IMG/VR virus record: IMGVR_UViG_3300033076_000814
Location: 1-57,788 of that record
Source: a virus
Lineage: Duplodnaviria; Caudoviricetes
DNA: 57,788 nucleotides
Strand: one strand, 5' to 3'
Every line of letters begins with the position of its first letter. The stretch's first letter is position 1. The notes beneath the pieces were generated by a model, which saw nothing but the letters and a program-made list of their open reading frames with translations, was not told the origin of the DNA and did not search any database. This document shows positions 142-57,484 of this stretch, one piece after another. The position numbers and the translations under genes were made by a program.

Positions 142-317
142 ACGCCAATGATTAAGAGATGAAGAAAATCGAAAAAAAATTATTTAGAAGTCAAAAATTG
201 CTCAAAGACATATTTGATGCAACCCAATTCCCATTGTTCCCAGTAAACTCTTGTTTATGGTTAATCATTGGCGTTTTTAATCCATTTTAAACATTACTGG
301 GGCAATGGGAAGCATCA
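142..317 (+). promoter_or_regulatory. Structured 5' leader with two crossing inverted repeats, one covering the ORF1 start codon
   Basis: 142-155 pairs perfectly with 261-274; 215-246 pairs with 294-317, which includes ATG 305. Confidence 0.6.
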
Positions 318-1219
318 GAAAACAACAAAAGAGGGTATCTGGCTTAAAAAAGTACAATCGAATAGTTAGCACCTTAGTTAAGGATCATAAAAAAAAGGGT
401 GAAACTTATGATTTAAGAGAGGTTCGGAAGATTGCCAGTAGTCTTTATCCTAATTTTAAAGAAACGCCATTAAAAGGGATTAGAAAGAGAGATATTCTTT
501 CTGCAACTCCAAAATCATTATTATCTTCCCAGAGAGGTTTTCAAAAACCATCAAAAGAAGAACCATCATACACATTACCTCCAGAATTTACTGATCCAAA
601 TGAAAGATATTATTATGATTTGGCAGATTTACTTGGATTAATTGAAACTGAAATACCAAATGATGTATTTTTTATATCAGAACTTGCTGGTTCAGAGGGT
701 TTAATTATTCGAGGTGGAACAAAACTTGAACCATCTGCCGAAGCATTTTATGTCAATAATTTTCAAAATTTAATAGCTTATTTGGATAAGCAACGCCAAT
801 CTGGGCAATTTAAAGATGATAGTGGTGGAGATTTTAGAATACCTTGTACTCCAGCAAAATTTGATAACAAAAACAAACATTGGGTTAGTAAAATAATTCT
901 TGTTGATGCGGATGGAAATAAATTAGGATCAGATGGTTTTGATCCAGAAGCATCAAGAATAATGGATGCTTTTAATCCAGATCAAAAGTATGCCTCCGAA
1001 CCAGCACCAACGAAACCTAAATCAACAAAGAAAGCACCAGAACCAACTGGGGGAATGTCACCAGAAGAAATTAGAGTTAGAAGCAAGGAAGCGGAAAATG
1101 TTGAGTTCAATCAAGATATAGAAGCAATTAAACTCGGAATATTTGGTGCTGGTACGCCAGAACAACAGAAAAAAGCATTTTTAGATAAATGGACAAAAAG
1201 AGGAAGATTTAAAGCATAA
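305..1219 (+). CDS. Hypothetical protein with basic N-terminus (possible terminal or DNA-binding protein)
   Basis: 304 aa ORF, first gene of the left end. Confidence 0.75.
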   Translation: MGSIRKQQKRVSGLKKYNRIVSTLVKDHKKKGETYDLREVRKIASSLYPNFKETPLKGIRKRDILSATPKSLLSSQRGFQKPSKEEPSYTLPPEFTDPNERYYYDLADLLGLIETEIPNDVFFISELAGSEGLIIRGGTKLEPSAEAFYVNNFQNLIAYLDKQRQSGQFKDDSGGDFRIPCTPAKFDNKNKHWVSKIILVDADGNKLGSDGFDPEASRIMDAFNPDQKYASEPAPTKPKSTKKAPEPTGGMSPEEIRVRSKEAENVEFNQDIEAIKLGIFGAGTPEQQKKAFLDKWTKRGRFKA

Positions 1220-1222
1220 AAA

Positions 1223-1513
1223 ATGGGAAGATTAACCGAAGCATTTGGATTTATTAATGTTGAACCCTCAAAATTCAATGGGTTATGGGTGCAAGATAAT
1301 ATGACATCATTATCAGTTACTCCAGCTTTAAAAAAAATTAGATTAGAAAATCTCTCATTGATCCGAAAAGAAAAAAAAGAAGTTATTTCTAATGAATTAA
1401 AAGAGAGGGAAAAGAAATTGGAGGTTATGGATTATTTGGCTGATCTTCAAGCAATGGAAATGGGATTAATCTCTAAAAAACAATTTGAATTAAAGCATGG
1501 ATCATTAGCATAG
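1223..1513 (+). CDS. Hypothetical protein
   Basis: 96 aa ORF directly after ORF1; C-terminus (DLQAMEMGLISKKQF) weakly resembles the ORF1 C-terminus. Confidence 0.7.
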   Translation: MGRLTEAFGFINVEPSKFNGLWVQDNMTSLSVTPALKKIRLENLSLIRKEKKEVISNELKEREKKLEVMDYLADLQAMEMGLISKKQFELKHGSLA

Positions 1514-1544
1514 TTTGATTTTTTAAAATTTTAAATGAATAAGT

Positions 1545-1745
1545 ATGAGTTCTAACTCCAAAACAAGTATCTCAAAATCGAGATACTATCTTCATCGAAT
1601 GGTTAAAAAACACAGATTAGATGTTCGTCTGGTCGTTCAGAAAAGAACCATTTATGTTAAGCATTACAATTTTGTTCCAGCCTTAAATGATCCATACATC
1701 AAAAGATTGCTGGATTTAGGATATTCTTTACAAACTGAAATTTAA
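1545..1745 (+). CDS. Hypothetical protein
   Basis: 66 aa ORF in operon. Confidence 0.65.
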   Translation: MSSNSKTSISKSRYYLHRMVKKHRLDVRLVVQKRTIYVKHYNFVPALNDPYIKRLLDLGYSLQTEI

Positions 1746-1749
1746 GCAA

Positions 1750-2103
1750 ATGAAAGAGTTTGATATTAAACAATTCAATCCAAATCCAAAAACAGAAATC
1801 TCTGTTCAGAAAAAGCAACAAATAGAGAGGGAGTATATGGGTAGTATTAATCCGTATAATGGTCATCATATTTGGGAAATAAATCCAGAAAATTTAGAGA
1901 TAAATTTGGCTATGGAAATAAAAAAGGATACAATTGAATTTGTGCATAACTATAAAAAAGTCAATACGCCAAACAAAGAAATATTATTTAGAAAAGGTTT
2001 TTTTTATGTATCGGCAATCAATAAAAAAAATGCATTGAAAAAATATTTGAAAGGAACTAATGGTAGTAAGAAATACGGAATATTACCCATTAAATTGTTT
2101 TAG
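1750..2103 (+). CDS. Hypothetical protein
   Basis: 117 aa ORF in operon. Confidence 0.7.
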   Translation: MKEFDIKQFNPNPKTEISVQKKQQIEREYMGSINPYNGHHIWEINPENLEINLAMEIKKDTIEFVHNYKKVNTPNKEILFRKGFFYVSAINKKNALKKYLKGTNGSKKYGILPIKLF

Positions 2104-2126
2104 TAACCAATAATAAATAAATAAGT

Positions 2127-2717
2127 ATGAGTAAAAAGTATGTTAAAAAACCAGTTGTCATTGATGCAATCCAATGGAATGGAGAAAACATTGAAGAAGT
2201 ATTGAGATTTAGTGATAAATGTTACTACAATGGAACAACACTAAAGATTAATACATTGGAGGGTATTCATGTCGCATCAAAAGGAGATTTTATCATTAAA
2301 GGTATAAAGGGTGAATTTTATCCATGTAAGCCAGATATTTTTGAAATGACTTACGATGATTTTTCAGAACCAAAAGAAATCCAAGTTCCTCCAATTAAAT
2401 CACTTCATAACACAACATCAAATGGTGCAAAAAAGAATGTTAAAGACATCAAATTCTGGGGTGATGGTGATTTGTTCCAACTAATTTCAAAAGCATCAAG
2501 TGAAGCAGAGGGTTGGATGAAGTCAACAAAAGCAATGGAAATTGAAAATATTGGTTGTGTTGTTCAAGTTACAACGCAACAAAGAAATCCAGATGGATCG
2601 TATGCTATTTCGGATGCAGTCACTTTTGTTCCAAATGCAACTATCATTTCAGAAATTAATGAAAATGAGGAAGTTATTTCAAGGAAGTTAGTAAACCCTA
2701 AAAAAGTTGAATATTAA
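2127..2717 (+). CDS. Conserved phage protein (KKPVVIDAIQW / GEFYPCKPDIF family) fused to a second domain
   Basis: KYVKKPVVIDAIQWNG...TLEG...GDFIIKGIKGEFYPCKPDIFEMTY is a common phage hypothetical motif. Confidence 0.75.
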   Translation: MSKKYVKKPVVIDAIQWNGENIEEVLRFSDKCYYNGTTLKINTLEGIHVASKGDFIIKGIKGEFYPCKPDIFEMTYDDFSEPKEIQVPPIKSLHNTTSNGAKKNVKDIKFWGDGDLFQLISKASSEAEGWMKSTKAMEIENIGCVVQVTTQQRNPDGSYAISDAVTFVPNATIISEINENEEVISRKLVNPKKVEY

Positions 2718-2749
2718 TCTATCAAAAATCAATTTTTAAATCAACAAAT

Positions 2750-3421
2750 ATGAAGTATTTAAACAATGGCGTTCAAGTAAACGCAATTCAATGGAATGGT
2801 CAAAACAAAGATGAGATCATCAGATTTTTTGGAGATGATCCAACAAAGATGGATTATCAATCTGCTAATGGGATATACATGATTTATGGAGATCAATTGT
2901 ATTTGCGTATGGCAAATGGTCAGTTGATGGTTAATATAGGTGATTATGTAGTTCAGACACCTCGCCTTACTTACTATCCATGCAATCCAAATGATTTTGA
3001 AAGGGATCATAAGCCGATTGGAGAAAGTCAAGAAAAAATGTTAGCACAAGACATTCCAGCAGTTGATCCAATAGCAATGTTAAAGCAGTTTAACGAAGTG
3101 AGTATCGAGAGTATCGAAACCTCGCCAATTAATGTTTCTATTCTGGAGGGTAAATATCTTGTGATGAAACAAGGTCAAATCCATTTATGTTTTTACCCAG
3201 ATCAATTTGTTTTGCTTCAAAAAACAATTAATCAAATTGTAAATGGTTTGAATGGTGTTGTTGAAGAACCAGAACCAACCCCAGAAGAAAAACAAGTATC
3301 TGCTGATCCATCAAATACAGAAACAGAATTTGAGTGGGATGTAAAAGCACCAGAAGTGGATAATACAACTCCAGAAGATTTAGCTGGATTGAGCAAAAAC
3401 GATAACGAAGAAAATAAATAG
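2750..3421 (+). CDS. Paralogue of the preceding protein with acidic C-terminus
   Basis: VNAIQWNGQN...GDYVV...YYPCNPNDF. Confidence 0.7.
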   Translation: MKYLNNGVQVNAIQWNGQNKDEIIRFFGDDPTKMDYQSANGIYMIYGDQLYLRMANGQLMVNIGDYVVQTPRLTYYPCNPNDFERDHKPIGESQEKMLAQDIPAVDPIAMLKQFNEVSIESIETSPINVSILEGKYLVMKQGQIHLCFYPDQFVLLQKTINQIVNGLNGVVEEPEPTPEEKQVSADPSNTETEFEWDVKAPEVDNTTPEDLAGLSKNDNEENK

Positions 3422-3424
3422 GTT

Positions 3425-3940
3425 ATGGCAAAGCAACAAGGTAAACCAGTAAATCCGATTGATGAAGAAATCAAATCGGAAATGACAAAATCCTCTCCAG
3501 TTCCTCCAGTTGAGGAGAGTAAAAGTATGGAAACATTTGAACAAGAAATAGATGTTAAATATGATGGAAATGATCCAAACCCATTTGCTGATCCATCCGA
3601 ACCAGTAGATGTAATTCCGCTTCCAGAAAGAGAGATAATTCTTCCAAAAAGATATTTTGTTTCGGAATGTTTATACAGACCTACAAATGTTGAAAGAGGT
3701 GAATATGATTTCTCTGAATTTTTAATTGACATGGAAACAATCCAATCGATTGAAAAAATATTTCCAGAAAGATTGCTTGATTTTGGAGTAGGTGAGAAAG
3801 AGGCGGAATTGAACAATATGATGGATGGATGTATTATTTATGCATCAGCATTTGCAGAAGAAATGATTGTTCTTGATTATTCATTTGAAGAATTAATCCA
3901 AAACTTAATTGAATATCGTGGCAACGAAACAAGTAAGTGA
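3425..3940 (+). CDS. Acidic hypothetical protein
   Basis: 171 aa ORF; contains a 35-bp repeat also found in the 18219-22715 gene. Confidence 0.7.
   Translation: MAKQQGKPVNPIDEEIKSEMTKSSPVPPVEESKSMETFEQEIDVKYDGNDPNPFADPSEPVDVIPLPEREIILPKRYFVSECLYRPTNVERGEYDFSEFLIDMETIQSIEKIFPERLLDFGVGEKEAELNNMMDGCIIYASAFAEEMIVLDYSFEELIQNLIEYRGNETSK
3479..3513 (+). repeat. 35-bp exact direct repeat, copy 1 (copy 2 at 21429-21463)
   Basis: gaaatgacaaaatcctctccagttcctccagttga at both sites, encoding EMTKSSPVPPVE. Confidence 0.9.
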
Positions 3941-4691
3941 ATTTGATTACCAGAGATTACTCGCTCTCCAGATAGCGAACAAAAATCCGTTTTCAGAACA
4001 TTTCAGAGGATCAAGAAAAACTTTGATTGTATTTGGTAGGGAAGTTTGTACTTCGTTATCTGGAGGTGATACTCTGGATATTGGTGATATTTCTGATCGT
4101 CAATTTAAATCCTTTCTTGGATCATTCAAGAGAGGGTTGTATGCCCAATTTCAGAAACATCCAGAATTAATCAACCTACAAGTTGATTTTGCTGGAATGT
4201 CAAAAGGAAAAAACAAAAAAGAATTTCAGAAAATCAGAAACTTCTCATATTATTGGAACATTGATTTGTCATCTGCATACTGGCAAATAGGACATAGGTT
4301 GGGATATGTTTCTGATAGTTTTTACTCAAAGTATATTGATCGTAATGAATATAAAGCGGTTAAGCGTTTATGTTTTTCTTTCCTATCCAGAACCAACTGG
4401 AGAGAATATAATCTTTTAGATGAAACATTTATCATTAACTGCGATAATACAATAGAACGCCAATGTTATAAAAATGTCCGAAAGGAATTGTACCGAATAA
4501 TATCTGGTGCATTGCAAATAGCTGGTGATGATTATATAGATTTCAACATTGATGCAATAAGTGTTTCTAAGTCTAAGAAAAATGAAATACTTGACTATTT
4601 TAAATCATTGAATTTAGATGTAAAAGTCAATAGAATTACCAAAGTCAATGATTATCAGATAGAAACAAAAGGTCGTATCCGAAATTTCTAA
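3918..4691 (+). CDS. Miniature family-B DNA polymerase-like palm protein (no exonuclease domain)
   Basis: Motif A-like WNIDLSSAYWQ, motif B-like YKAVKRLCFSFL and motif C-like DFNIDAISV in the expected order; start at GTG 3918 or TTG 3909. Confidence 0.55.
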   Translation: MATKQVSEFDYQRLLALQIANKNPFSEHFRGSRKTLIVFGREVCTSLSGGDTLDIGDISDRQFKSFLGSFKRGLYAQFQKHPELINLQVDFAGMSKGKNKKEFQKIRNFSYYWNIDLSSAYWQIGHRLGYVSDSFYSKYIDRNEYKAVKRLCFSFLSRTNWREYNLLDETFIINCDNTIERQCYKNVRKELYRIISGALQIAGDDYIDFNIDAISVSKSKKNEILDYFKSLNLDVKVNRITKVNDYQIETKGRIRNF

Positions 4692-4759
4692 TGTTGAAAA
4701 CTAACATATCATTGTTGAAAACTCAAAAATAATTTTCTTGCGTAATTAAAACTAAATGG

Positions 4760-4767
4760 TAACTTTG
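4760..4767 (+). promoter_or_regulatory. Bacteroidota -7 promoter element
   Basis: TAACTTTG with TTG at 4738-4740, in an intergenic gap. Confidence 0.65.
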
Positions 4768-4775
4768 TTCCATAA

Positions 4776-5093
4776 ATGTTTAAAAAACGCCAAATGAACA
4801 AAATTGACCAAATGACTTTTACTTGCGAATTAGTTTCGGAAACAAGTATGTCACCAGTTAGCAAATCTTTAGGAGTAAGAAAAAGCATCATGACTTTGTA
4901 TGCTTTTGAAAATGATCCAAATTATTATTTTATTGAATGGGAGATACCAACTCTGGATAAATGTGAAAACATAGGTATCTGGTGTGAAGATGGTACAAAA
5001 GTAATTTGTGACTATGACGGAGTTTTTTCCTTATCAGAATTTGCTATTGAGTTTTTGCAGAAAAACGGATTTGACACATCATACGCAGAATAA
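4776..5093 (+). CDS. Hypothetical protein
   Basis: 105 aa ORF; a later ATG may be the true start. Confidence 0.7.
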   Translation: MFKKRQMNKIDQMTFTCELVSETSMSPVSKSLGVRKSIMTLYAFENDPNYYFIEWEIPTLDKCENIGIWCEDGTKVICDYDGVFSLSEFAIEFLQKNGFDTSYAE

Positions 5094-5308
5094 TGAGAAA
5101 AGGATTGTTTTATTACAACACATTGTCACCAGAAGAAGCAAAGCTATTTGATGACAATTTTATTCCAAGAAAAGGTGGTTGTACCAAAGATCAATATTTA
5201 AATCGATCATTTATTTCAATGAGAGAATTTATACTATCTGCATTTATGTGGAATACAACTCCAGAGGGATTTTACTTCTGGAGTGAAATATCAGAAAGAA
5301 ATATTTAA
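5093..5308 (+). CDS. Hypothetical phage protein (FxWxxTPEGxxFW motif)
   Basis: 71 aa ORF with stop/start overlap. Confidence 0.7.
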   Translation: MRKGLFYYNTLSPEEAKLFDDNFIPRKGGCTKDQYLNRSFISMREFILSAFMWNTTPEGFYFWSEISERNI

Positions 5309-5337
5309 TAGTCATTAAATACCAAATAATAAATCAC

Positions 5338-5568
5338 ATGAATAAGTATCAAAGAAAGCAACTCGAAACCATTATGGAGAAAATAGATGAGTTGAAATCC
5401 GAACTGGAAAACATCAGAGATGATGAGCAAGAAAAACTTGATAATACTCCAGAAAACCTCCAGAATAGCGAAAGATATTGCAATATGGAAGCATCAACAT
5501 CATCATTGGATGATGCAATAGACAATCTTCAAAGTGCCTATGATGATATTTCAACCTCAATGGAATAA
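5338..5568 (+). CDS. Coiled-coil phage protein
   Basis: DDEQEKLDNTPENLQNSER, a common small helical phage protein motif. Confidence 0.7.
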   Translation: MNKYQRKQLETIMEKIDELKSELENIRDDEQEKLDNTPENLQNSERYCNMEASTSSLDDAIDNLQSAYDDISTSME

Positions 5569-5612
5569 TAGGCATATAATACCAAGTAAACAATCAAAAC
5601 AAATAAATAGAG

Positions 5613-6419
5613 ATGGAAACAAAAATCCAAAAATCAAAACGCAGAGATTACCAATTGGTTGATCCTCGAAACATTATTATCCGAGAAAACTTTAATGTTA
5701 GAACGGATATGGGTGACATTGAAACATTAATGACTTCAATTGTGGAAAGTGGTCTTCAAATACCAATTAAAGCAAAAAAGGTTCGTGGATCAGATGATCA
5801 ATGGGAGGTTATCGATGGACACCGAAGAATTATGGCAATTCATCTTGCAATTGAGTATGGTCACGAAATCGATTTTGTAGAAGTGTTGCCGTATCAAGGC
5901 AAGGAAGACGATGAAGTTTTTTCAATGCTTATTACTGGTGTTGGTCAAAAGCCATTGTCGGAAATGGAACAAGCAGAGGGTATTGCCAGATTAATGCAAT
6001 TTGGACATAAGCCAGAAGATATTGCGAAGCGTATGGGAAAATCAACTCCTCATGTGTATTATCTGATTAAATTAAATTCTCTACCAGAGAAATATAAGCA
6101 GTTGATCCGAGATGGGTATATTTCTGGATATGCTATGCTTGAAATCATCGAAAATAATCCAGTAGAAGATTGGGAAGAAAAAGTTGAAAATGCCATTGCA
6201 AATGCTCAAAAGTCATCAAAAAATGGCGAGGTTAAAAAAGCAACCGCAAAGGATTTGGCTGAAAAAAAATTAAAGCCAATTGAGAAACTTCGTGACCTTG
6301 TAATTTATTTGGATGAAAATAGCATCGAAAACGACAAGGCAACAATTGTTCGTGAAGTATGGGAACGAATAAATTGCGATGAAACATTGGATGATTTAAT
6401 CATGATAATTGAAAGCTAA
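5613..6419 (+). CDS. ParB/Srx N-terminal domain protein with HTH
   Basis: NFNVR...SIVESGLQIPI...VIDGHRRIMA...LSEMEQAEGIARL...IAKRMGKS. Confidence 0.85.
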   Translation: METKIQKSKRRDYQLVDPRNIIIRENFNVRTDMGDIETLMTSIVESGLQIPIKAKKVRGSDDQWEVIDGHRRIMAIHLAIEYGHEIDFVEVLPYQGKEDDEVFSMLITGVGQKPLSEMEQAEGIARLMQFGHKPEDIAKRMGKSTPHVYYLIKLNSLPEKYKQLIRDGYISGYAMLEIIENNPVEDWEEKVENAIANAQKSSKNGEVKKATAKDLAEKKLKPIEKLRDLVIYLDENSIENDKATIVREVWERINCDETLDDLIMIIES

Positions 6420-6660: not shown

Positions 6661-6671
6661 TTACACATACA

Positions 6672-7058: not shown

Positions 7059-7070
7059 AAATTTTAAAAA

Positions 7071-7508: not shown

Positions 7509-7511
7509 CCA

Positions 7512-50482: not shown

Positions 50483-50543
50483 TTTTGTTTAAAGCATGAT
50501 CATTAAAAATTGAGGTATGTTTTGTTTTAATTTGTTTGGTAGT

Positions 50544-50954: not shown

Positions 50955-50956
50955 TT

Positions 50957-51466
50957 ATGAAAGTTGAAAGAAAATATTTAATTGCTGGTTTGATAGGTGC
51001 GTTTACCTTGACTGGGGCATATATGTACTTGCAAGTCAAAAAAATCCTTAATTATACATTGAATTTTATCGGTGCAAGAAATGTAACTATTTCGGCAACT
51101 GGTGTAACCGCAGATTTCGTTTACGAATATCAAAACAAGGCAGACATTGATGTAACCCTTGCTACACAAGAATATGAAGTCTGGATCAATGGTGTTTTTT
51201 ACACTACATTGAGAAATGATAATCCAACTCTTTTAAAAGGAGGTCAAAAGTCTTCAATTGTTGTGAAAATGGATTTGGATTATAAGGAATTGGCAAAAAC
51301 ATTGAAGACAAATTATCTAACTTTAATTGCTCATCCTCAAAACATCAAGATTGTTACCAAAATGAAATGGAAAGCTAAATATGGCATTTTTAAAATTCCA
51401 GTTAGCTATGATTGGGAAGTGACATTGAAGCAAATTATGGGGTGGTATTTACCTAATAAGAAATAA
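50957..51466 (+). CDS. LEA_2/WHy-like membrane-anchored protein
   Basis: N-terminal TM; YQNKADIDVTL....YEVWING beta-sandwich pattern. Confidence 0.55.
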   Translation: MKVERKYLIAGLIGAFTLTGAYMYLQVKKILNYTLNFIGARNVTISATGVTADFVYEYQNKADIDVTLATQEYEVWINGVFYTTLRNDNPTLLKGGQKSSIVVKMDLDYKELAKTLKTNYLTLIAHPQNIKIVTKMKWKAKYGIFKIPVSYDWEVTLKQIMGWYLPNKK

Positions 51467-51468
51467 GT

Positions 51469-51750
51469 ATGAGTAATAATTATCAATCAATATTTACTTT
51501 ACCAAAAGCCAATATCACCATCGATCCATCATGGGGTATTTTAAGATTAGAAATATTAAGTTCAAAGCCACAAGAGATTATTTTTAAAATGTTAGGTAAT
51601 TGTGTTTTGGGTAATGAGGATCAAGGCAATCAATCCAGCGAGGAAATTGCTTTAAATACTCCTTATGTAATTCAGTCTTTGGGAAATACTCCTTTAGGGA
51701 ACATAAAAATAACCGCAGAAGAGGGTTGTGTAATTGTTGCTTATAAATGA
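51469..51750 (+). CDS. Small beta-rich protein, paralogue of the next gene
   Basis: ITIDPSWGILRLEIL vs LLIDPSFALTKLSIVL. Confidence 0.65.
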   Translation: MSNNYQSIFTLPKANITIDPSWGILRLEILSSKPQEIIFKMLGNCVLGNEDQGNQSSEEIALNTPYVIQSLGNTPLGNIKITAEEGCVIVAYK

Positions 51751-52010
51751 TTTCTCAAAAGATTTGGACATACGAACTTTCTGCTGGATCACTTTTGATT
51801 GATCCCAGCTTCGCATTAACAAAGTTGTCCATAGTTCTTCAATCTGGTACTGGAACAATTCAAGGATCAGAGATTGCTGGGGGAATTACCTCTACTCCAG
51901 TTTCTTTAGTCATTGGTATGCCAGTTTTAGTTGATGGCTATGGATCAACACCGATCTCTGATTATTTAATTAATACAACTGGGGTTGTAGCGTTAATTGG
52001 TAAGAAATGA
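51747..52010 (+). CDS. Small beta-rich structural protein
   Basis: 87 aa, overlapping start/stop. Confidence 0.65.
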   Translation: MISQKIWTYELSAGSLLIDPSFALTKLSIVLQSGTGTIQGSEIAGGITSTPVSLVIGMPVLVDGYGSTPISDYLINTTGVVALIGKK

Positions 52011-52570
52011 GTTTCGGATTTACTGGAGGTGTTATTGGCGGTTCTGTCATACCCACAACTAACTTTGGATTGTTTACCCAAATTGAAAACGGAACTCCAG
52101 TTGAAAATACAATTACAGAAACCTCAATAGTTGGTGTTGGAATAGGAACTTTATCAGTTCCAGCAAATACCTTTAAGATTGGAGATACTTTTCATCTCAA
52201 AATATGTGGTGTTTTAAATTCAAAAAACAACCAAACATTGACCATAAAACTTCATGCTAATGGAATTGACATCGGAACAACTGGTGTAATTCAATTGGCA
52301 ACAACTACTGCAAGAATTTGGGAATTATCCGCAGATTTTACAATTAGGAATATTGGCGGTTTAGGTGTGGCAAGTTTGCTTACAAATGGGCAGTTTTTTT
52401 ATCAAAAAAATGCCTCAACAACTTATGAGGGTGTTTCTTTTCTAAATTTGGATACAACTACTTTTGATACTGAAATTCTGAATACTTTGGATGTGGTTGC
52501 ACAATGGGGTTTTGCTGATCCATTGAATAGCATTTATACCAGTCAATTGGTACTGAATAAAGTTTTTTGA
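52007..52570 (+). CDS. Beta-rich structural protein (possible spike or vertex component)
   Basis: Thr/Gly-rich; LSVPANTFKIGD. Confidence 0.6.
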   Translation: MSFGFTGGVIGGSVIPTTNFGLFTQIENGTPVENTITETSIVGVGIGTLSVPANTFKIGDTFHLKICGVLNSKNNQTLTIKLHANGIDIGTTGVIQLATTTARIWELSADFTIRNIGGLGVASLLTNGQFFYQKNASTTYEGVSFLNLDTTTFDTEILNTLDVVAQWGFADPLNSIYTSQLVLNKVF

Positions 52571-52589
52571 TTTATTCATTGATAATTGT

Positions 52590-52597
52590 TATTTTTG
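52590..52597 (+). promoter_or_regulatory. Bacteroidota -7 promoter element
   Basis: TATTTTTG 25 nt before ATG 52623. Confidence 0.5.
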
Positions 52598-52622
52598 TTG
52601 TAAATCAATTAAATAAATAAGT

Positions 52623-52859
52623 ATGTTAGGAAGTTTGATGAACTCATTAGTGGATAGTGTAGGTATCGTTACCGAAAAAATCCAAACAACTCTGGATGAT
52701 CTTTCAGAGGAATTAAATGAACCAGATCACAAGAATATCTGGATTACAATTAAGGCAATCAATGAAGATCGTGAATTTGTTTGTCAAGTTTTCCACAGAA
52801 AATCAACTGGTATCGAGTATGTCCGAGATGTAACAATCAAAGAAATTGTTGATAAATAA
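52623..52859 (+). CDS. Hypothetical protein
   Basis: 78 aa ORF. Confidence 0.65.
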   Translation: MLGSLMNSLVDSVGIVTEKIQTTLDDLSEELNEPDHKNIWITIKAINEDREFVCQVFHRKSTGIEYVRDVTIKEIVDK

Positions 52860-53218
52860 TGGATACTCCAGTAACATCTAAACAACAAGGTGTAATCATC
52901 GGAATTATTCTTGTCTTTTTGTTGCTGATAACAATTTTGGTGAATGTGATTAAAAACAATCAGCATGAAGATTTTGTGCAAAAATTTGTTGAAAAACAAC
53001 AACACCAAATAGATAGCAGTTATCGTGCATCGGAAAGAAAAATTGATAGTTTGATGGTGTTGATCCAGAACAATAAAAAGCAACTGGATGAAATTCAGAA
53101 ATCCAAACAAGAAATACGATTAGTTTATGTTGAAAAAGATGCTAAAATTGATACTCTTGGGTATGTGGGCATTGTTAATATGTTCAAAAGCATATTCGCA
53201 AAAGGCGGTATTAACTGA
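52859..53218 (+). CDS. Spanin-like protein (N-terminal TM plus coiled coil)
   Basis: TM VIIGIILVFLLLITILV, then coiled coil; overlaps the next gene. Confidence 0.5.
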   Translation: MDTPVTSKQQGVIIGIILVFLLLITILVNVIKNNQHEDFVQKFVEKQQHQIDSSYRASERKIDSLMVLIQNNKKQLDEIQKSKQEIRLVYVEKDAKIDTLGYVGIVNMFKSIFAKGGIN

Positions 53219-53561
53219 TGGTGATACATCAATTTGTTTTTCAGTTGATCAAGCGAGATTTATTTTAAAGCAAATTAATCATCTGGATTATCTGGATACT
53301 TTATGTGAACTTCAAAAAGAAGAAATTGAATTGTGGAAAACAAATTCTTTTGATCTGGAGAAGATTATTATAGAAAGGCAATATCAGATCAAATTAAAGG
53401 ATGATGCCATCCAGTTAAAACAATTGAGCCTTGATCGACAATTAGAAATTAATAATACACAAAAGAAACTGATTAGAAAGGAGAGGTTTCAGAAAAATGT
53501 AGCTATAATCTGCGGATCGGTAGCTACTGGTGTCATGACTTACTTATTTATAACAAAGTGA
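53139..53561 (+). CDS. Overlapping partner of the spanin-like protein (signal peptide, coiled coil, C-terminal TM)
   Basis: MLKLILLGMWALLICSKAYSQ; 80-nt overlap with the upstream gene. Confidence 0.5.
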   Translation: MLKLILLGMWALLICSKAYSQKAVLTDGDTSICFSVDQARFILKQINHLDYLDTLCELQKEEIELWKTNSFDLEKIIIERQYQIKLKDDAIQLKQLSLDRQLEINNTQKKLIRKERFQKNVAIICGSVATGVMTYLFITK

Positions 53562-53585
53562 TTTGGTGTAAAAAGGTAAAGCAGT

Positions 53586-53624
53586 AAAAAAAAAATCCAG
53601 AGTTAATCATACTCTGGATTTTTT
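53586..53624. terminator. Bidirectional intrinsic terminator
   Basis: aaaaaatccagagt-taatcat-actctggatttttt where + and - operons converge. Confidence 0.85.
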
Positions 53625-53854
53625 GTTTTAGTAAATTTTTCAATTTTGTTTTTGTTCACAAGAGGAAGTTTTGCTCTTGGTATTTTTTTATGCCTTTTTA
53701 TTCGATCTAAGGAACTTTCTACTGGCACAAGTTCTCTCAATCCAAAACCAACTATTAAACCATCTACAATCTCATCTGGTGACACATTATGTTCCTTTGA
53801 CATTTCGATAAGAAAAGCATGGGTTAAATCATTCAATTCAATTTCTATTTTCAT
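53603..53854 (-). CDS. Hypothetical protein (possible ribbon-helix-helix)
   Basis: MKIEIELNDLTHAFLIEMSKEHNVSPDEIV pattern. Confidence 0.55.
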   Translation of the reverse strand: MKIEIELNDLTHAFLIEMSKEHNVSPDEIVDGLIVGFGLRELVPVESSLDRIKRHKKIPRAKLPLVNKNKIEKFTKTKNPEYD

Positions 53855-54041
53855 TTCTATTGTTTTTTATCATTAAGTAATTTTCCACACACCGAATTTT
53901 ATGACTTAATCGATCATAAGGATTTACCATATTATCCGATTTCCAATATTCTGCATCTCGACATTCTCTCCAGTCGGAAATGGTGAAGTTTTTTGTAAGT
54001 GATCCAAACTGACTATTCAGCTTCATCATCGTGTAATCCAT
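53838..54041 (-). CDS. Hypothetical protein
   Basis: 67 aa ORF in the minus-strand operon. Confidence 0.6.
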   Translation of the reverse strand: MDYTMMKLNSQFGSLTKNFTISDWRECRDAEYWKSDNMVNPYDRLSHKIRCVENYLMIKNNRNENRN

Positions 54042-54255
54042 ACTGATTATTGTTTAAGGTTACTACTGCTTCATAAATAGTCTGATCTTTGGTTATTCCA
54101 TCAGCCAGAAGATTTATAAGTTCTCTTTTAGTGCTTTTATGTACCGATGTTCCAAACCTTTTTGCAAGTTTGCGAACTTGTACTCTGGATGCTTTATTAG
54201 TTTTGATCAAACCCATTATTTCATCGCAAAATAAATCTAATTCTCTGTTCTCCAT
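54013..54255 (-). CDS. Hypothetical protein
   Basis: 80 aa ORF. Confidence 0.6.
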   Translation of the reverse strand: MENRELDLFCDEIMGLIKTNKASRVQVRKLAKRFGTSVHKSTKRELINLLADGITKDQTIYEAVVTLNNNQYGLHDDEAE

Positions 54256-54638
54256 TCCATTAAAAGTTTATTGCTGATTTTATAATAAGGTGCTGATTTT
54301 GGATCAGAACTGCAAAGAACAACCTTGTTAATAAGATGTATCTTATGTAGTTTGTAAATTACTCTCCAAACTTGTTTTCGTGTTAATGAATAGCCATCCA
54401 ATTTGATAAAAAAGTAAAGATGATTGCTGGTAAATTTACCTTTATCCAGAAAATATTTACGCATTACATTCAGAGCAATTGAAGTATGAGCCAACTTTTT
54501 TAACTCTACTGGATCAGACAAGTCATAATCTAAAAATGTCCAATCATTTTTGGGTTCTTCTCTGGGTGTTAATTTGGTCTTCTTTCTAAGGAAACGATAC
54601 CTAAAATACCAAACCATGTTTAAAAAAAATCTTTTCAT
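54237..54638 (-). CDS. Hypothetical protein (possible winged helix)
   Basis: LTRKQVWRVIYKLHKIHLINKV...YYKI. Confidence 0.55.
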   Translation of the reverse strand: MKRFFLNMVWYFRYRFLRKKTKLTPREEPKNDWTFLDYDLSDPVELKKLAHTSIALNVMRKYFLDKGKFTSNHLYFFIKLDGYSLTRKQVWRVIYKLHKIHLINKVVLCSSDPKSAPYYKISNKLLMEWRTEN

Positions 54639-54657
54639 ATTTCTACTTTAATTGTTA

Positions 54658-54753
54658 TTACCATCTAAAACCATTCAAGGCATAATCAAACCATACCACA
54701 AAACAAATTGCTACTACGATACAAATGATTATTTCAATAATTTCCTCTTTCAT
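54658..54753 (-). CDS. Small membrane protein, 31 aa (not in ORF track)
   Basis: MKEEIIEIIICIVVAICFVVWFDYALNGFRW. Confidence 0.5.
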   Translation of the reverse strand: MKEEIIEIIICIVVAICFVVWFDYALNGFRW

Positions 54754-54765
54754 AGTTTCTTTAAA

Positions 54766-55086
54766 TTATTGTAATCGTAAAGACTTAAACCAATTAAGTA
54801 GTAAGTTCTTTCCCCCTAATGAATAACTCCATTCACCAGTAAACATAAAATGAACTGGTAAGAAAACCAGCATTAGGATCATAAGAATAATTGCCAGAGG
54901 TAAAGTTAATCTGATCCAAAAAGGAACTGGCGTTTTTTCTTCATAATAAAAATCCATTTTTAACTCTTGAAATCTATCGCAAAGTTCTTCGCTATCTATT
55001 TTAGATAATTCTGGAAATACTTTTTTAAAGTTGGGCATATAGTTAGCATAACCATTTGACCATGTTCTTTTTAACTTGTTGTACAT
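54766..55086 (-). CDS. Membrane protein
   Basis: WIRLTLPLAIILMILMLVFLPVHFMFTG. Confidence 0.7.
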   Translation of the reverse strand: MYNKLKRTWSNGYANYMPNFKKVFPELSKIDSEELCDRFQELKMDFYYEEKTPVPFWIRLTLPLAIILMILMLVFLPVHFMFTGEWSYSLGGKNLLLNWFKSLRLQ

Positions 55087-55097
55087 ACTACGATTAT

Positions 55098-55316
55098 TTA
55101 TTTAAACAAAATTTTAGCAGATGGGATTGTTCCATTAAATGCTCTTACCCATGACATACCAACTATTTCAAATTCAACTTTGCTTCCATCAACTCCATCC
55201 TTATTAAGTTGATCAACCGAAGCATTATTTACTTTTAGAATTTTGACTTGATCTTCGCCAAATTCATAAACTACTACCCATTCTTTCTGGGGTGTTAAAC
55301 ACAATGTTCCTACCAT
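55098..55316 (-). CDS. Hypothetical protein
   Basis: 72 aa ORF. Confidence 0.65.
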   Translation of the reverse strand: MVGTLCLTPQKEWVVVYEFGEDQVKILKVNNASVDQLNKDGVDGSKVEFEIVGMSWVRAFNGTIPSAKILFK

Positions 55317-55882
55317 TATTTATCAATTTGTTTATGATGAGTAACGCTACTGATTCCCTCCATCATGTTAAGCATTTTCCAAATCTTTTCTTTTTCTTCT
55401 TTGGTTAAAGGTTTTTCATCTTGATCATCCTTATCATCAGTAGGTTTTGAATAAAGTTTATTTTTTTGAACAAAAGCCTCATAAAAAATCTCCAGTTCAG
55501 ATTTGTAATGCTTCCAGAACAAATCAAGTTTAACCATAAATTCAGAAAACAAATGGGGTTCAATATTTTCAATAAAATAACTTATATGATTAGGTTTTTT
55601 TACATATTTGAATTGACCAAATTCACAACCATATTTTACTCTTTTACCAACAACACTACTTAATATTTGGCTTATAAATTTGTTAGGAACTTCTTTGTGA
55701 ATATTAAATTCAAAATCTTTTCTTTCATTACCAGAGATGTCTTGCTCGGTGATCCCATACTTACGCATAATTAAAAGCAATTTATCTTGGGCATTTATCT
55801 TTTCACCATCAACGCCTTTGATTGATAATTCCTTTAATTTTCTTGCAAGTTCAATCCATTTTTCTTTACCAGAATTATCCAT
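55316..55882 (-). CDS. DUF2786-like N-terminal domain protein
   Basis: KLKELSIKGVDGEKINAQDKLLLIMRKYGIT; ATG 55882. Confidence 0.6.
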   Translation of the reverse strand: MDNSGKEKWIELARKLKELSIKGVDGEKINAQDKLLLIMRKYGITEQDISGNERKDFEFNIHKEVPNKFISQILSSVVGKRVKYGCEFGQFKYVKKPNHISYFIENIEPHLFSEFMVKLDLFWKHYKSELEIFYEAFVQKNKLYSKPTDDKDDQDEKPLTKEEKEKIWKMLNMMEGISSVTHHKQIDK

Positions 55883-55886
55883 CACC

Positions 55887-56261
55887 TTATTGTTTTTGCC
55901 ATAAAAAATTATCACAGAACTCCCCTTTACCAAGACTTGCACCAATCACCATTTGTCTTACAATAGGTGGGTATCCACCTTTTCTATTTATTGCCCTTTG
56001 AATGTAAATCATTTGATCAAACATATTTAAATTGGGAGGCAAAACTACACCACTTGTATAGCCACAATGGAAACTTCTACGGACATCTTCCTTGTCAAAC
56101 ATAGCCAGAGCATTGCCATCTGGATTTAAAACCAACACACCGCCCTCCGATGCAAACTCCATTACCGCACAAATTTTACCAATAAAATCATCTGGGTTTA
56201 ATGCACCTTTACAAGTTTTTGCATTGTAATTAATATGAGCAAATCCTACTATTTCCATCAT
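55887..56261 (-). CDS. Hypothetical protein
   Basis: 124 aa ORF. Confidence 0.7.
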   Translation of the reverse strand: MMEIVGFAHINYNAKTCKGALNPDDFIGKICAVMEFASEGGVLVLNPDGNALAMFDKEDVRRSFHCGYTSGVVLPPNLNMFDQMIYIQRAINRKGGYPPIVRQMVIGASLGKGEFCDNFLWQKQ

Positions 56262-56437
56262 TTATGAGATTTTTTATGGTGACAATACAATGGTTCAATA
56301 TTTGGAAATTTCATATAGAATTTCTTGATAGCAACCATCATATTGACTGCCTCAATGTTGATGCAATGTAGAATTTCAGCATCCTTATCTGGGTAGAAAG
56401 CAATGTGATAAATTGATAATGTGTCTTTTGTTGTCAT
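56258..56437 (-). CDS. Hypothetical protein, 59 aa (not in ORF track)
   Basis: MTTKDTLSIYHIAFYPD...; stop overlaps the next ATG. Confidence 0.55.
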   Translation of the reverse strand: MTTKDTLSIYHIAFYPDKDAEILHCINIEAVNMMVAIKKFYMKFPNIEPLYCHHKKSHK

Positions 56438-56441
56438 ACTT

Positions 56442-56645
56442 TTATTTTTTTAGCGTAATACAATAATCTACTATGCCTTTGCATATTTCACAATTCACTT
56501 TTTTGTGAGTTAATCTATAATCTCCACAAGTTCTATCATCTTGATCTAAAGTTAACCCACATAATGTATATCCAGCATTGAATGGCGGTGCTTCAAAATG
56601 AATACTACCTTTAAAATCCTCATTTTTTATAAATTCAATATTCAT
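56442..56645 (-). CDS. Small Cys/His zinc-binding protein
   Basis: H...TLCG...VNCEIC. Confidence 0.6.
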   Translation of the reverse strand: MNIEFIKNEDFKGSIHFEAPPFNAGYTLCGLTLDQDDRTCGDYRLTHKKVNCEICKGIVDYCITLKK

Positions 56646-56647
56646 GA

Positions 56648-57088
56648 TTAAGAATTTAAATTGTTTGCTTTATTGCTCCATCTGGTTTTATTACCAGCAC
56701 CAGATAAGCCTAAATTTTTTCCAATCTCTTTTCGATGTGCTTGGAACTCTGGAGATGAAAACCTTGAAGTCAAAACTAATCTTGTTTGCTCCGAAAGTTT
56801 ATCTCTGGTTCTTCCTTGACCTCCTTTTTTAAATCTCGATTTCTCACCATTGGCAATAAGATTCTTCCCAATTACAAGATCATAGTTTTCTAATGCTTTT
56901 ATTCTGCTTTTTTCAGCACTTTCTAAACTACAAATCCCTCTCCCCAGATCAAATCCAAATTGAATTTTATAATCCTTTTCAGACATTTCATGTTTCTGTC
57001 GTACATGGGAAATTACTCGGTTAAAACTTTTTCCACAAATTTCACAAATGGGTTTTCCATCTGGATCGTATTCAATAATTCCGTACAT
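56648..57088 (-). CDS. Ros/MucR-like C2H2 zinc-finger protein
   Basis: ICEICGKSFNRVISHVRQKHEMSEKDYKIQFG. Confidence 0.6.
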   Translation of the reverse strand: MYGIIEYDPDGKPICEICGKSFNRVISHVRQKHEMSEKDYKIQFGFDLGRGICSLESAEKSRIKALENYDLVIGKNLIANGEKSRFKKGGQGRTRDKLSEQTRLVLTSRFSSPEFQAHRKEIGKNLGLSGAGNKTRWSNKANNLNS

Positions 57089-57090
57089 AA

Positions 57091-57249
57091 TTAATTATTA
57101 AAGGTTCTAATTGTTTCTATTATCGCAATTAAAAGATTGAGGCATCCAGCGACAATCCCAGCAGTAACTTCATATTGATCTATGCGTGATGATGCTAAAT
57201 AAAATGATCCAATCGCAATTGAATACCAAAAAATAAGTATCAATATCAT
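57091..57249 (-). CDS. Small two-TM membrane protein, 52 aa (not in ORF track)
   Basis: MILILIFWYSIAIGSFYLASS...AGIVAGCLNLLIAII. Confidence 0.5.
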   Translation of the reverse strand: MILILIFWYSIAIGSFYLASSRIDQYEVTAGIVAGCLNLLIAIIETIRTFNN

Positions 57250-57277
57250 AAAATAAATTTTTATATTAAAAGGTGGA

Positions 57278-57484
57278 TTAATTCCAAGATACTTGATGTT
57301 TAAGTATCTCTACCGCACAAGAAAAATGTGCATAGTTGTAAATGTCCAAATCTCTTTGTTGACAAATTCTTTTGATTGCCAGAACAAAACCCCAGTAGTC
57401 ATGTTCAGCCATGTTGCTAACATCTTTGTTTGCAGTTCCAAGATAACTAACTTGGATCATTCTCGGTTGTTTACTATTGCTCAT
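57278..57484 (-). CDS. Hypothetical protein, first gene of the right-end operon
   Basis: 68 aa ORF downstream of a promoter element. Confidence 0.65.
   Translation of the reverse strand: MSNSKQPRMIQVSYLGTANKDVSNMAEHDYWGFVLAIKRICQQRDLDIYNYAHFSCAVEILKHQVSWN

What the first reader, a model, noticed from the sequence alone, without database searches (positions are those of the whole stretch)
305..57484. Proteome appears to lack Ala-Ala, Gly-Pro, Pro-Gly and Thr-Val
Seen: reading the translated ORFs by eye I found no AA, GP, PG or TV dipeptide, while VT, AG and PA are common. These four dipeptides necessarily create GCNGC, GGNCC, CCNGG and ACNGT. Known: these are type II restriction sites (Fnu4HI, Sau96I, ScrFI and HpyCH4III specificities). 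Inference: restriction avoidance is strong enough to constrain protein sequence, and it predicts the host's R-M repertoire.
Basis: partly seen in the sequence, partly recalled or inferred. Interest (0 to 1): 0.8.

Follow-up and report, generated by a model that had tools for sequence, protein, structure and literature searches.

The report
Phage genome stripped of restriction sites
This phage contig has lost every copy of dozens of short DNA words of the kind that bacterial restriction enzymes cut, so completely that its proteins can no longer contain Ala-Ala, Gly-Pro, Pro-Gly, Thr-Val and a few other residue pairs.

Summary
The window is a whole 57,788-bp viral contig (GC 33%, about 48% complete). 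GCNGC, GGNCC, CCNGG and ACNGT each occur 0 times (50-114 expected). AA, GP, PG and TV are 0 in about 18,000 residues (39-56 expected each). PW, WP and AxxA are also 0, forced by CCNNGG, GGCC and GCN7GC.

Roughly 40-50 motif classes are eliminated, including CTAG, CCGG, GGCC, CGCG, CAGG, CCTTC, GAATTC, GATATC and GAAN4TTC. Other palindromes (CAATTG, TGCA, ATGCAT) are normal and GATC is enriched.

- **Selection acts on DNA.** No synonymous-codon shuffle (0 of 200) reaches zero, and codon choice depends on context.
- **A relative shows the same zeros.** A contig about 77% identical differs at 3,017 of 13,277 bases, yet neither gained a site. Permuted substitutions give 159±12.
- **Missing dipeptides track avoided sites.** This holds contig by contig, and GC-matched controls are normal.

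The best reading is extreme passive restriction-site avoidance in a phage lineage of a Bacteroidota-like host (no Shine-Dalgarno, A-rich start context). No methyltransferase was found in this half. The host and its enzymes were not identified, so the predicted repertoire is untested. I rate it a new, extreme variant of a known strategy.

The parts
1..57788 (.). Whole contig: region free of about 40-50 short motif classes. Zero counts include GCNGC, GGNCC, CCNGG, ACNGT, CTAG, CCGG, GGCC, CGCG, CGNCG, CGNNCG, CCNNGG, GGNNCC, GCN7GC, CAGG/CCTG, CCTTC, CTCAG, GTCTC, CAGTG, GAGCT, GAATTC, GATATC, CATATG, AAGCTT, AGTACT, CTTAAG, TTCGAA, ACATGT, GAAN4TTC and CCAN5TGG.
   Evidence: counts against mononucleotide, dinucleotide and maximal-order Markov expectations; synonymous shuffles.
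305..57553 (.). Predicted proteome (83 ORFs, 67 on + and 16 on -) with no AA, AxxA, GP, PG, TV, PW or WP.
8976..10577 (+). DnaB-type replicative helicase, used as the marker gene. After the Walker A motif it reads GKT-AFS where more distant homologues read GKT-AAA, and TL at residue 72 where they have TV.
   Evidence: (PF03796 1e-92).
14343..18217 (+). Two adjacent PAPS-reductase-like proteins (799 and 490 aa) of the DndC/SspD/BrxP kind of PP-loop ATP-pyrophosphatase. They may be a DNA-modification module and a second anti-restriction layer (inferred).
   Evidence: BrxP 5e-13; SspD 1.5e-11; DndC 3e-4.
50197..50200 (.). The only ACGT site in the window.
28180..28183 (.). The only GCGC site in the window.
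25597..25604 (.). Surviving CGGG and GAATC (GANTC) together in the 1732-aa gene. The other four GANTC survivors start at 7575, 22430, 55352 and 56860 (all GAWTC).
12870..14062 (-). OmpA-domain lipoprotein-like gene and SLT transglycosylase gene, which indicate a host with peptidoglycan and probably an outer membrane.
1064..20497 (+). Stretch syntenic with L085, an independent metagenome contig about 77% identical in nucleotides, which has the same zeros.

Best explanation
This is a tailed phage of an SD-less, most likely Bacteroidota, host. Its lineage evades restriction passively: it carries no copy of the words that the host population's sequence-specific nucleases recognise. These would be mainly Type II systems, probably also Type IIS/IIG/III systems with 4-6 specified bases. 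An unmethylated genome with no site cannot be cut, so the phage can move between strains with different R-M sets without first acquiring their methylation.

The pressure has been strong and long-lasting. Sites that no synonymous codon can avoid have been removed by changing the proteins. Ala-Ala and Ala-x-x-Ala (GCNGC, GCN7GC), Gly-Pro (GGNCC), Pro-Gly (CCNGG), Thr-Val (ACNGT), Pro-Trp (CCNNGG) and Trp-Pro (GGCC) are therefore forbidden.

Shown: the zeros, the DNA-level selection, its persistence across relatives, and the match between missing dipeptides and avoided sites. Inferred: that restriction enzymes are the selecting agent, and that the host is Bacteroidota.
For: 1. **Zeros.** About 17 motifs with four specified bases are at or near zero against 16-155 expected per strand. 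Further 5-mers, 6-mers and gapped palindromes are also at zero.
2. **Selective loss.** 47 of 64 six-base palindromes are absent. CAATTG (57), TTGCAA (44), TGATCA (44), TTTAAA (109), ATGCAT (26) and ATCGAT (26) are at or above expectation. Ten control motifs fall inside the synonymous-shuffle range.
3. **Non-palindromic words vanish in both orientations.** Examples are CAGG/CCTG 0, CCTTC/GAAGG 0 and GTCTC/GAGAC 0.
4. **Selection acts on DNA.** Ser TCN after Asp/Glu is 2 of 59, against 922 of 1,156 elsewhere (p 5e-35). CAG before G is 0 of 164, against 123 of 505 elsewhere. CTA before G is 0 of 425. In 0 of 200 shuffles with proteins and codon usage fixed did any of 29 motifs reach the observed count.
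5. **Independent assemblies agree.** L085 (DnaB 82% identical) has the same zeros, plus AGCT 0/55, CTNAG 0/55 and GANTC 0/55. Over 13,277 aligned bases with 3,017 differences neither lineage has a forbidden site. Permuting the same substitutions gives 159±12 (minimum 125 of 300).
6. **DnaB clade.** 29 DnaB proteins at 59% identity or more, from JGI, Logan and ENA assemblies, carry 7 forbidden pairs. 72 more distant ones carry 206.
7. **Missing dipeptides follow avoided sites.** L003 avoids GCNGC and GCN7GC but not ACNGT, giving AA 0/17, AxxA 0/17 and TV 10/16. L063 avoids ACNGT but not GCNGC, giving TV 0/14 and AA 10/8. GC-matched controls are normal.
8. **Known specificities.** Passages of PMC11033074 list CTAG, GGNCC, CCNGG, CCGG and CCTTC as R-M specificities. 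A table in PMC4525171 gives Type III Mod motifs of 4-5 bases such as CCTGA, ACAGC and CGAG.
9. **No methyltransferase or endonuclease in the window.** Among 83 ORFs, Pfam gave 25 families in all and PADLOC 13, with none of these kinds.
10. **Host signals.** SD-like motifs occur upstream of 2 of 83 genes, and A peaks lie at -14 to -11 and -4/-3. The introduction of PMC8710568 describes A-3, A-6, A-12 and A-13 and SD under-representation in Bacteroidia.
Against: - **No host or enzyme identified.** No host genome, methylome or restriction enzyme was linked to the phage, so the selecting agent is inferred.
- **Motifs with no recalled prototype.** For CGNCG, CGNNCG, CAGG as a bare 4-mer, GAGCT, GACCC, AGCCC, GTAN7TAC and GACNCT I can recall no prototype enzyme, and no call supplied one.
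- **The number of motifs is very large.** Forty or more specificities is more than I would expect one strain to carry (my knowledge). The explanation therefore needs a diverse host population or a broad host range.
- **Only half the genome is seen.** The contig is about 48% complete. The missing half could encode methyltransferases or contain sites.
- **GATC enrichment is not explained.** GATC is 267 against 217±10 in shuffles.
- **A possible modification module is present.** The DndC/SspD/BrxP-like gene pair means the phage may not be purely passive.
Confidence: 0.85

Rival explanations
1. Assembly, sequencing or synthetic artefact: the sites are missing from the record and not from the virus. 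Possible causes would be systematic miscalls at modified motifs or an engineered sequence.
For: The window is a single metagenome-derived contig classed as linear and about 48% complete. Its first 30 bases look odd (a poly-C run).
Against: L085, an independent metagenome contig about 77% identical, shows the same zeros. DnaB proteins from many JGI, Logan and ENA assemblies lack the same dipeptides. Coding density is 93% with intact ORFs. Codon choice is coherently context dependent.
Confidence: 0.01
2. By-product of low GC content, codon usage or amino-acid composition.
For: GC is 33%, CpG is depleted (CG 1,932 against GC 3,394 on both strands), and many lost words are GC-rich.
Against: Shuffles that keep the proteins and codon usage give 10-135 sites per motif and never zero. 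AT-rich words also vanish (GAATTC, GATATC, CATATG, CTTAAG, GAAN4TTC). GC-matched control contigs keep AA, AxxA and TV near expectation.
Confidence: 0.01
3. Mutational decay and not selection. Host methyltransferases methylate cytosines in these sites on phage DNA, and 5-methylcytosine deamination erodes them, as with CpG loss in vertebrates.
For: Many of the lost words are cytosine-rich palindromes of a kind listed as m5C motifs (GGNCC and CCNGG in PMC11033074).
Against: Decay cannot hold counts at exactly zero against protein-level constraint. Here conserved AAA and TV positions were changed. The expected deamination products CCAGG/CCTGG are themselves absent. Words without C in a methylatable context also vanish; I recall them as adenine-methylated (GAATTC, GATATC, GANTC, CTGAAG). 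Substitutions between lineages never create a site, which requires selection.
Confidence: 0.03
4. Self versus non-self by absence. The phage, or a helper element, encodes nucleases that cut these words in host DNA, and the phage genome is site-free to spare itself.
For: Most ORFs have no family assignment, including proteins of 1,498 and 1,732 aa. Half the genome is unseen.
Against: No endonuclease of R-M type was detected. Dozens of specificities would need dozens of enzymes. The avoided sets differ between relatives in the way host repertoires would.
Confidence: 0.04
5. General avoidance of short palindromes or hairpin-forming words for structural, packaging or replication reasons.
For: The series CC/GG, GG/CC and CG/CG with spacers of 0-2 bases are all at zero, which looks systematic.
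Against: Many palindromes are normal or enriched (GATC, TGCA, AATT, CAATTG, TTGCAA, ATGCAT, ATCGAT, TTTAAA). Non-palindromic words are lost too. Among the GC...GC spacings tested (0-12), only 0, 1, 2 and 7 are depleted. Relatives lose different sets.
Confidence: 0.03

Closest known systems
Restriction-site avoidance in phage genomes, a passive anti-restriction strategy. I read passages of the survey by Rusinov et al. 2018 (PMC6286503). The earlier work of Sharp 1986, Karlin 1992 and Rocha 2001 is recalled and was not read here.
   Same: Recognition words of sequence-specific host nucleases are under-represented in a dsDNA phage, with no need for phage methylation.
   Different: Here about 40-50 motif classes are at zero, not merely depleted, and they include many with only four specified bases. 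Non-synonymous escape has removed whole dipeptides from the proteome. The term 'amino acid' occurs 0 times in the survey's main text. Its passages also report GCNGC as mostly not avoided in its dataset, whereas it is absent here.
Single-motif extremes in cultured phages, such as Staphylococcus phage K lacking GATC and T7 lacking many six-base sites.
   Same: Complete absence of particular restriction sites from a whole phage genome.
   Different: In those cases one or a few motifs are involved, mostly avoidable by synonymous change. No proteome-wide dipeptide loss is reported to my knowledge.
CTAG and GGCC avoidance in haloarchaeal pL6-family plasmids (PMC11431627; search listing only).
   Same: Avoidance of short palindromes by a mobile element.
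   Different: Those are small plasmids with few motifs and archaeal hosts.
Phage-encoded methyltransferases and DNA hypermodification, the active anti-restriction strategies.
   Same: The same adversary, restriction enzymes.
   Different: No methyltransferase was found in the 83 ORFs. A weak D12 hint was rejected. A DndC/SspD/BrxP-like pair may add modification, but it was not shown to act on DNA.

Membership tests
Restriction-site avoidance (passive anti-restriction) | Specific short words are significantly under-represented relative to composition-aware expectation. | tested here: met
   zero counts against expectations of 16-155 per strand; 0 of 200 synonymous shuffles reach the observed counts.
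Restriction-site avoidance (passive anti-restriction) | The loss is selective. Other words of the same length and composition are not depleted. | tested here: met
   CAATTG, TTGCAA, TGCA, ATGCAT, ATCGAT, TCATGA, TTTAAA, AATT and CCN7GG fall within the shuffle range, and GATC is enriched.
Restriction-site avoidance (passive anti-restriction) | The avoided words are recognition sites of R-M systems. | tested here: inconclusive
   Passages of PMC11033074 list CTAG, GGNCC, CCNGG, CCGG and CCTTC as R-M specificities. PMC4525171 gives short Type III motifs. Enzyme names for the others are recalled; one search found none of six names in a review. For CGNCG, CGNNCG, bare CAGG, GAGCT and GTAN7TAC I recall no prototype.
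Restriction-site avoidance (passive anti-restriction) | The host or host population encodes the cognate restriction enzymes. | not testable with these tools
   The host was not identified, and REBASE and host methylomes are not available here.
Restriction-site avoidance (passive anti-restriction) | Purifying selection against site creation continues, and the avoided set varies between related lineages. | tested here: met
   0 new sites against 159±12 expected from 3,017 substitutions; a shared core plus lineage-specific motifs (ACNGT, CAGG and GANTC here; GATC in L003; AGCT and CTNAG in L085).
Phage of Bacteroidota (Bacteroidia-type expression signals) | Shine-Dalgarno is lacking, with A-3/A-6 and A-12/A-13 start context. 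| tested here: met
   SD-like motif in 2 of 83 genes, and A in 47-56 of 83 genes at -14 to -11 and 44-45 of 83 at -4/-3; 3% against a 9% background. The criterion comes from the introduction of PMC8710568.
Phage of Bacteroidota (Bacteroidia-type expression signals) | Sequence link to a Bacteroidota genome, such as a prophage, CRISPR spacer or close host homologue. | tested here: not met
   Searches found no relative in genome contigs. One search gave only a 0.86 feature-score lead to a Bacteroidota OmpA cluster. Spacer matching is not possible with these tools.
Methyltransferase-based anti-restriction | The phage encodes a DNA methyltransferase. | tested here: not met
   Searches found none among 83 ORFs. 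A D12 hint at 49107-49655 (E 0.004, below the cut-off) had no PHROG or PDB support. Only about half the genome is present.

The most novel reading that the evidence does not exclude
The list of forbidden words is a faithful negative imprint of the pan-immune R-M repertoire of an uncultured Bacteroidota host population. It covers 40 or more specificities, some of them not yet described (bare CAGG/CCTG, CGNCG, CGNNCG, GAGCT, GACCC, AGCCC, GTAN7TAC, GACNCT).

The core of the list (GCNGC, GCN7GC, GGNCC, CCNGG, CCGG, GGCC, CTAG) has been enforced for so long that a whole phage clade, down to about 60% DnaB identity, has evolved functional proteomes without Ala-Ala, Ala-x-x-Ala, Gly-Pro or Pro-Gly.

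That would make such phages a sequence-only way to read out host restriction specificities. It would also make them a natural experiment in protein evolution under a reduced dipeptide vocabulary.
Probability: 0.35. Interest if true: 0.8.

Novelty: new variant of a known kind. Interest (0 to 1): 0.72.

Why it matters
Restriction avoidance is usually described as a statistical depletion that phages achieve through synonymous changes. Here it is absolute, and it covers dozens of words, many with only four specified bases. It also reaches into protein sequence: seven residue pairs, among them the normally very common Ala-Ala and Ala-x-x-Ala, are forbidden across a whole phage clade.

- **Strength and persistence of restriction pressure.** It shows how strong, diverse and persistent this pressure can be in natural, probably Bacteroidota, populations.
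- **Predicting specificities.** It offers a sequence-only way to predict restriction specificities, possibly new ones, of uncultured hosts.
- **Protein evolution.** It provides a natural dataset on how conserved motifs adapt when particular dipeptides are unavailable. One example is DnaB GKT-AAA becoming GKT-AFS.
- **Practical use.** Such DNA should resist most commercial four- and six-base cutters. Its design rules could guide restriction-proof vectors for hard-to-transform Bacteroidota.

Tried and rejected
- **Close phage relatives in the phage collection:** megablast found nothing. By protein, DnaB reaches at most 42% identity, mostly to unannotated faecal contigs and Gram-positive phages. 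The 1,498-aa protein is 29% identical to Leptospira phages. The PAPS-reductase-like protein is at most 27% identical, with the best E-value to Planktothrix phage PaV-LD. The 375-aa protein has no match. ParB is about 29-32% identical to many phages. None of these anchors a host.
- **Relatives in IMG/VR:** a single-protein DnaB query found none. The alignment query returned only hits of 51% identity or less (after one search gave no answer).
- **Genome collection:** two scans with P0001 and P0040 found nothing.
- **Cluster look-up:** it gave no organism names.
- **tRNAs:** none.
- **Dam-type methyltransferase as the reason GATC is spared:** the Pfam hint (E 0.004) was not supported by PHROGs or PDB sequences. 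I rejected it.
- **Enzyme names:** a find for six names in PMC4081073 returned nothing, so the names remain recalled.
- **Literature on dipeptide loss through restriction avoidance:** six searches found none. Supplementary files were not consulted.
- **Not used:** structure prediction, complex prediction, sequencing-run search and the representative-protein search. They would not bear on the question.
- **A correction to my notes:** one notebook entry gives '58 of 69 loci with 0-2 avoided'. Recounting one search gives 56 of 66 DnaB-panel loci of 8 kb or more.

Full report
**What the window is.** The window is an entire viral contig of 57,788 bases. It is classed as linear and estimated about 48% complete. 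GC is 33.4%, with purine excess on the + strand. A greedy ORF set gives 83 genes (67 on +, 16 on -) covering 93% of the sequence. No tRNA was found.

Recognisable genes are:
- a DnaB helicase;
- a ParB-like protein, two DnaA-C HTH proteins, RusA, an OmpA-domain protein, an SLT transglycosylase, an endolysin and a holin;
- two adjacent PAPS-reductase-like proteins.

Most other ORFs match no family. This is a tailed phage of a bacterium with peptidoglycan and probably an outer membrane.

GCNGC, GGNCC, CCNGG and ACNGT are all absent, against 50, 57, 57 and 114 expected per strand from dinucleotide frequencies. In 17,988 residues AA, GP, PG and TV are 0, against 51.8, 38.9, 38.9 and 56.3 expected. 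VT (56), AG (78) and PA (31) are ordinary. Because the four words are palindromes that are absent from the DNA, the result does not depend on gene calling.

**It is far larger than reported.** Counting both strands against dinucleotide expectation:
- Also at zero are CGCG, CGNCG and CGNNCG (32 each), GCN7GC (100), CCGG, CCNNGG, GGCC and GGNNCC (122 each), CAGG/CCTG (261) and CTAG (266).
- Nearly gone are ACGT 2/229, GCGC 2/100, GANTC 10/423 and CCCG 2/63.
- Partly depleted are GCNNGC 12/100 and CTNAG 42/266.

Maximal-order Markov expectations, which discount shorter forbidden words, reveal further zeros:
- Five-base words: CCTTC (70), CTCAG (35), GTCTC (30), CAGTG (29), GAGCT (18), GACCC (16) and AGCCC (16).
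- Six-base words: GAATTC (49), GGATCC (34), GATATC (26), CATATG (24), GAATGC (19), CTGAAG (17.5), CTTGAG (17), and ACATGT, TTCGAA, AGTACT and AAGCTT (about 16 each).

Gapped palindromes are lost too: GAAN4TTC 0/62, CCAN5TGG 0/39 and GATN4ATC 2/62.

Of the 64 six-base palindromes 47 are absent. I count roughly 40-50 independent motif classes. This number is approximate, because degenerate specificities may merge some classes.

The extra motifs add forced peptide losses, all observed at zero: PW (CCNTGG), WP (TGGCC) and AxxA (GCN7GC, 51.8 expected).

**The loss is selective and acts on DNA.** The word spectrum is bimodal. CAATTG (57), TTGCAA (44), TGATCA (44), TTTAAA (109), ATGCAT (26), ATCGAT (26) and TCATGA (20) sit at or above expectation.

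I shuffled synonymous codons while keeping every protein and the overall codon usage. All 29 tested forbidden motifs reappeared: CAGG mean 135, ACGT 94, CTAG 68, ACNGT 63, CCGG 45. Zero was reached in 0 of 200 shuffles. Ten control motifs stayed within the shuffle range. GATC exceeded it, at 267 against 217±10 with a maximum of 242.

Codon choice depends on context exactly as site avoidance predicts:
- Ser is TCN after Asp/Glu in 2 of 59 cases, against 922 of 1,156 elsewhere (p 5e-35).
- Gln is CAG before a G in 0 of 164 cases, against 123 of 505 elsewhere.
- Leu is CTA before G in 0 of 425 cases.

**It is a lineage trait under continuing selection.** L085, an independent metagenome contig, has a DnaB 82% identical. 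It is syntenic with window 1064-20497 at about 77% nucleotide identity. It shows the same zeros and has additionally purged AGCT (0/55), CTNAG (0/55) and GANTC (0/55).

Over 13,277 ungapped aligned bases the two lineages differ at 3,017 positions, yet neither contains any of 33 forbidden patterns. Reassigning the same replacement bases among the same positions creates 159±12 sites, with a minimum of 125 in 300 permutations.

The DnaB search listed 120 homologues. The 29 at 59% identity or more, from JGI, Logan and ENA assemblies, carry 7 forbidden pairs in total. The 72 more distant ones (P0049-P0120) carry 206. P0030-P0048 were left out of this contrast. At conserved positions the clade reads GKT-AFS where 31-33 of the 72 read GKT-AAA, and TL where 34 of the 72 read TV.

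**Missing dipeptides track avoided sites in other contigs.** The DnaB alignment returned 80 IMG/VR loci. I dropped 14 that were under 8 kb and profiled 49 palindromic motifs in the remaining 66. Of these:
- 56 loci avoid 0-2 motifs;
- 2 avoid 3;
- 5 avoid 4-6;
- 3 avoid 10-12 (L063, L048, L038).

The window avoids 16. L003 and L004 are the same sequence, found through the 748-aa protein, and avoid 12.

L003 lacks GCNGC and GCN7GC but keeps ACNGT, and its proteome has AA 0/17, AxxA 0/17 and TV 10/16. L063 lacks ACNGT but keeps GCNGC, and has TV 0/14 and AA 10/8. GC-matched contigs without avoidance (L080, L021, L016, L015, L033) have these pairs near expectation. L003 also avoids GATC (0/35), which the window does not (285/202).

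**Host.** SD-like motifs precede 2 of 83 genes. A is enriched at -14 to -11 (47-56 of 83) and at -4/-3 (44-45 of 83). TAnnTTTG occurs 14 times in 3.9 kb of intergenic DNA, against about 4 by my rough estimate.

The introduction of PMC8710568 states that Bacteroidia generally lack SD, use A-3/A-6 and A-12/A-13, and under-represent SD-like sequences upstream of starts.

I checked SD use in the window and 30 loci that I selected: all those with 4 or more avoided motifs plus a sample of the rest. Ten of the 11 multi-site avoiders are SD-less (6% or fewer genes). Seven SD-less loci show little avoidance. The 14 SD-using loci show 0-3 avoided motifs, apart from L057 with 5.

No cultured relative, prophage or genome-resident copy was found. 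The host assignment therefore rests on expression signals plus a weak feature-based lead.

**Mechanism.** The best explanation is passive restriction evasion. A genome with no recognition word cannot be cleaved by the corresponding enzyme, whatever its methylation state. No methyltransferase or R-M endonuclease was detected among the 83 ORFs. A weak D12 hint was rejected.

Several forbidden words are documented R-M specificities in passages of PMC11033074: CTAG, GGNCC, CCNGG, CCGG and CCTTC. Type III Mod motifs can be as short as CGAG, CCTGA or ACAGC, according to a table in PMC4525171. That fits the loss of CAGG/CCTG and the near-loss of ACAGC (1/17.6).

The enzyme names usually attached to the other words are my recollection. 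They include Fnu4HI, Sau96I, ScrFI, HpyCH4III, MwoI, BsaJI, NlaIV, HinfI, XmnI and EcoRI. One search did not confirm any of the six names I searched for.

The variable part of the avoided set among relatives is what differing host repertoires would produce.

The rivals are contradicted or weak, as detailed in their own section. They are artefact, composition, methylation-driven decay, general palindrome avoidance, and a phage-encoded nuclease set.

**Novelty.** Restriction avoidance is well known. The survey PMC6286503 (passages read) treats it as a depletion ratio and does not mention amino acids. Six literature searches found no report of dipeptides eliminated from a phage proteome, nor of dozens of four- to six-base motifs at zero in one phage. 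I therefore class this as a new, extreme variant of a known strategy.

**Open points.**
- The host and its enzymes are unidentified.
- Half of the genome is unseen.
- Some forbidden words have no prototype known to me.
- GATC enrichment is unexplained.
- The DndC/SspD/BrxP-like pair may add a modification layer.

Noticed in passing
whole window; L085: GATC is over-represented, not avoided. It is 285 against 174-202 expected in the window and 135 against 55 in L085. In coding sequence it is 267 against 217±10 in synonymous shuffles, with a maximum of 242. GGATCC and AGATCT are nevertheless absent. Several other avoiding contigs (L003, L063, L048, L038) eliminate GATC. No Dam-type methyltransferase was found in this half of the genome.
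   Followed up: partly
window:14343-18217: Two adjacent PAPS-reductase-like proteins (799 and 490 aa) match the PADLOC models BrxP (5e-13), SspD (1.5e-11) and DndC (3e-4). These are ATP-pyrophosphatases of DNA-modification systems. The pair may be a phage DNA-modification module sitting just upstream of two very large unknown proteins (1,498 and 1,732 aa).
   Followed up: partly
L063, L048, L038, L003/L004 (IMG/VR loci): Other low-GC, SD-less viral contigs with only distant DnaB similarity (33-36% identity; L003/L004 came through a different protein) each eliminate 10-12 of 49 palindromic motifs. The sets differ, and the corresponding dipeptides are lost. The phenomenon may be common among phages of one SD-less host group.
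   Followed up: partly
L003 and L004: The same 16.8-kb sequence is held under two IMG/VR names, one of them carrying a giant-virus MAG label. Its content and motif profile look like a phage related to the window.
   Followed up: no
window:25597-28183: Several of the rare surviving sites lie in one gene, the 1732-aa ORF 23875-29073: CGGG at 25597, GAATC at 25600, GCCAGC at 26058 and GCGC at 28180. This may be a recently acquired or recently mutated segment.
   Followed up: no
window:1-45: The contig's 5' end carries a run of seven C and purine- and pyrimidine-rich stretches. It holds the only CCCG in the window. It may be a low-quality assembly end or a genome terminus.
   Followed up: no
window:18219-22715: Residues 268-684 of the 1,498-aa protein are 29% identical to proteins of Leptospira phages of the LE1 type. 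It also matches phrog_22901 of unknown function.
   Followed up: no
window:48299-49658: ORFs 48299-49150 and 49107-49658 overlap by 44 bases. The second has a C-terminal hydrophobic helix (the PDB hits are only to a transmembrane segment). The first has weak Zot-like and spanin-like PHROG hits. Together with the nearby holin at 50517-50954, they may form part of a lysis cassette.
   Followed up: no
whole proteome: PxxG is depressed (12 against 38.9). CCN7GG is about half of the dinucleotide expectation (64/122) but lies within the synonymous-shuffle range (29 against 27.9). Any pressure on that word therefore shows at the protein level and not in codon choice, or the effect is unrelated.
   Followed up: partly
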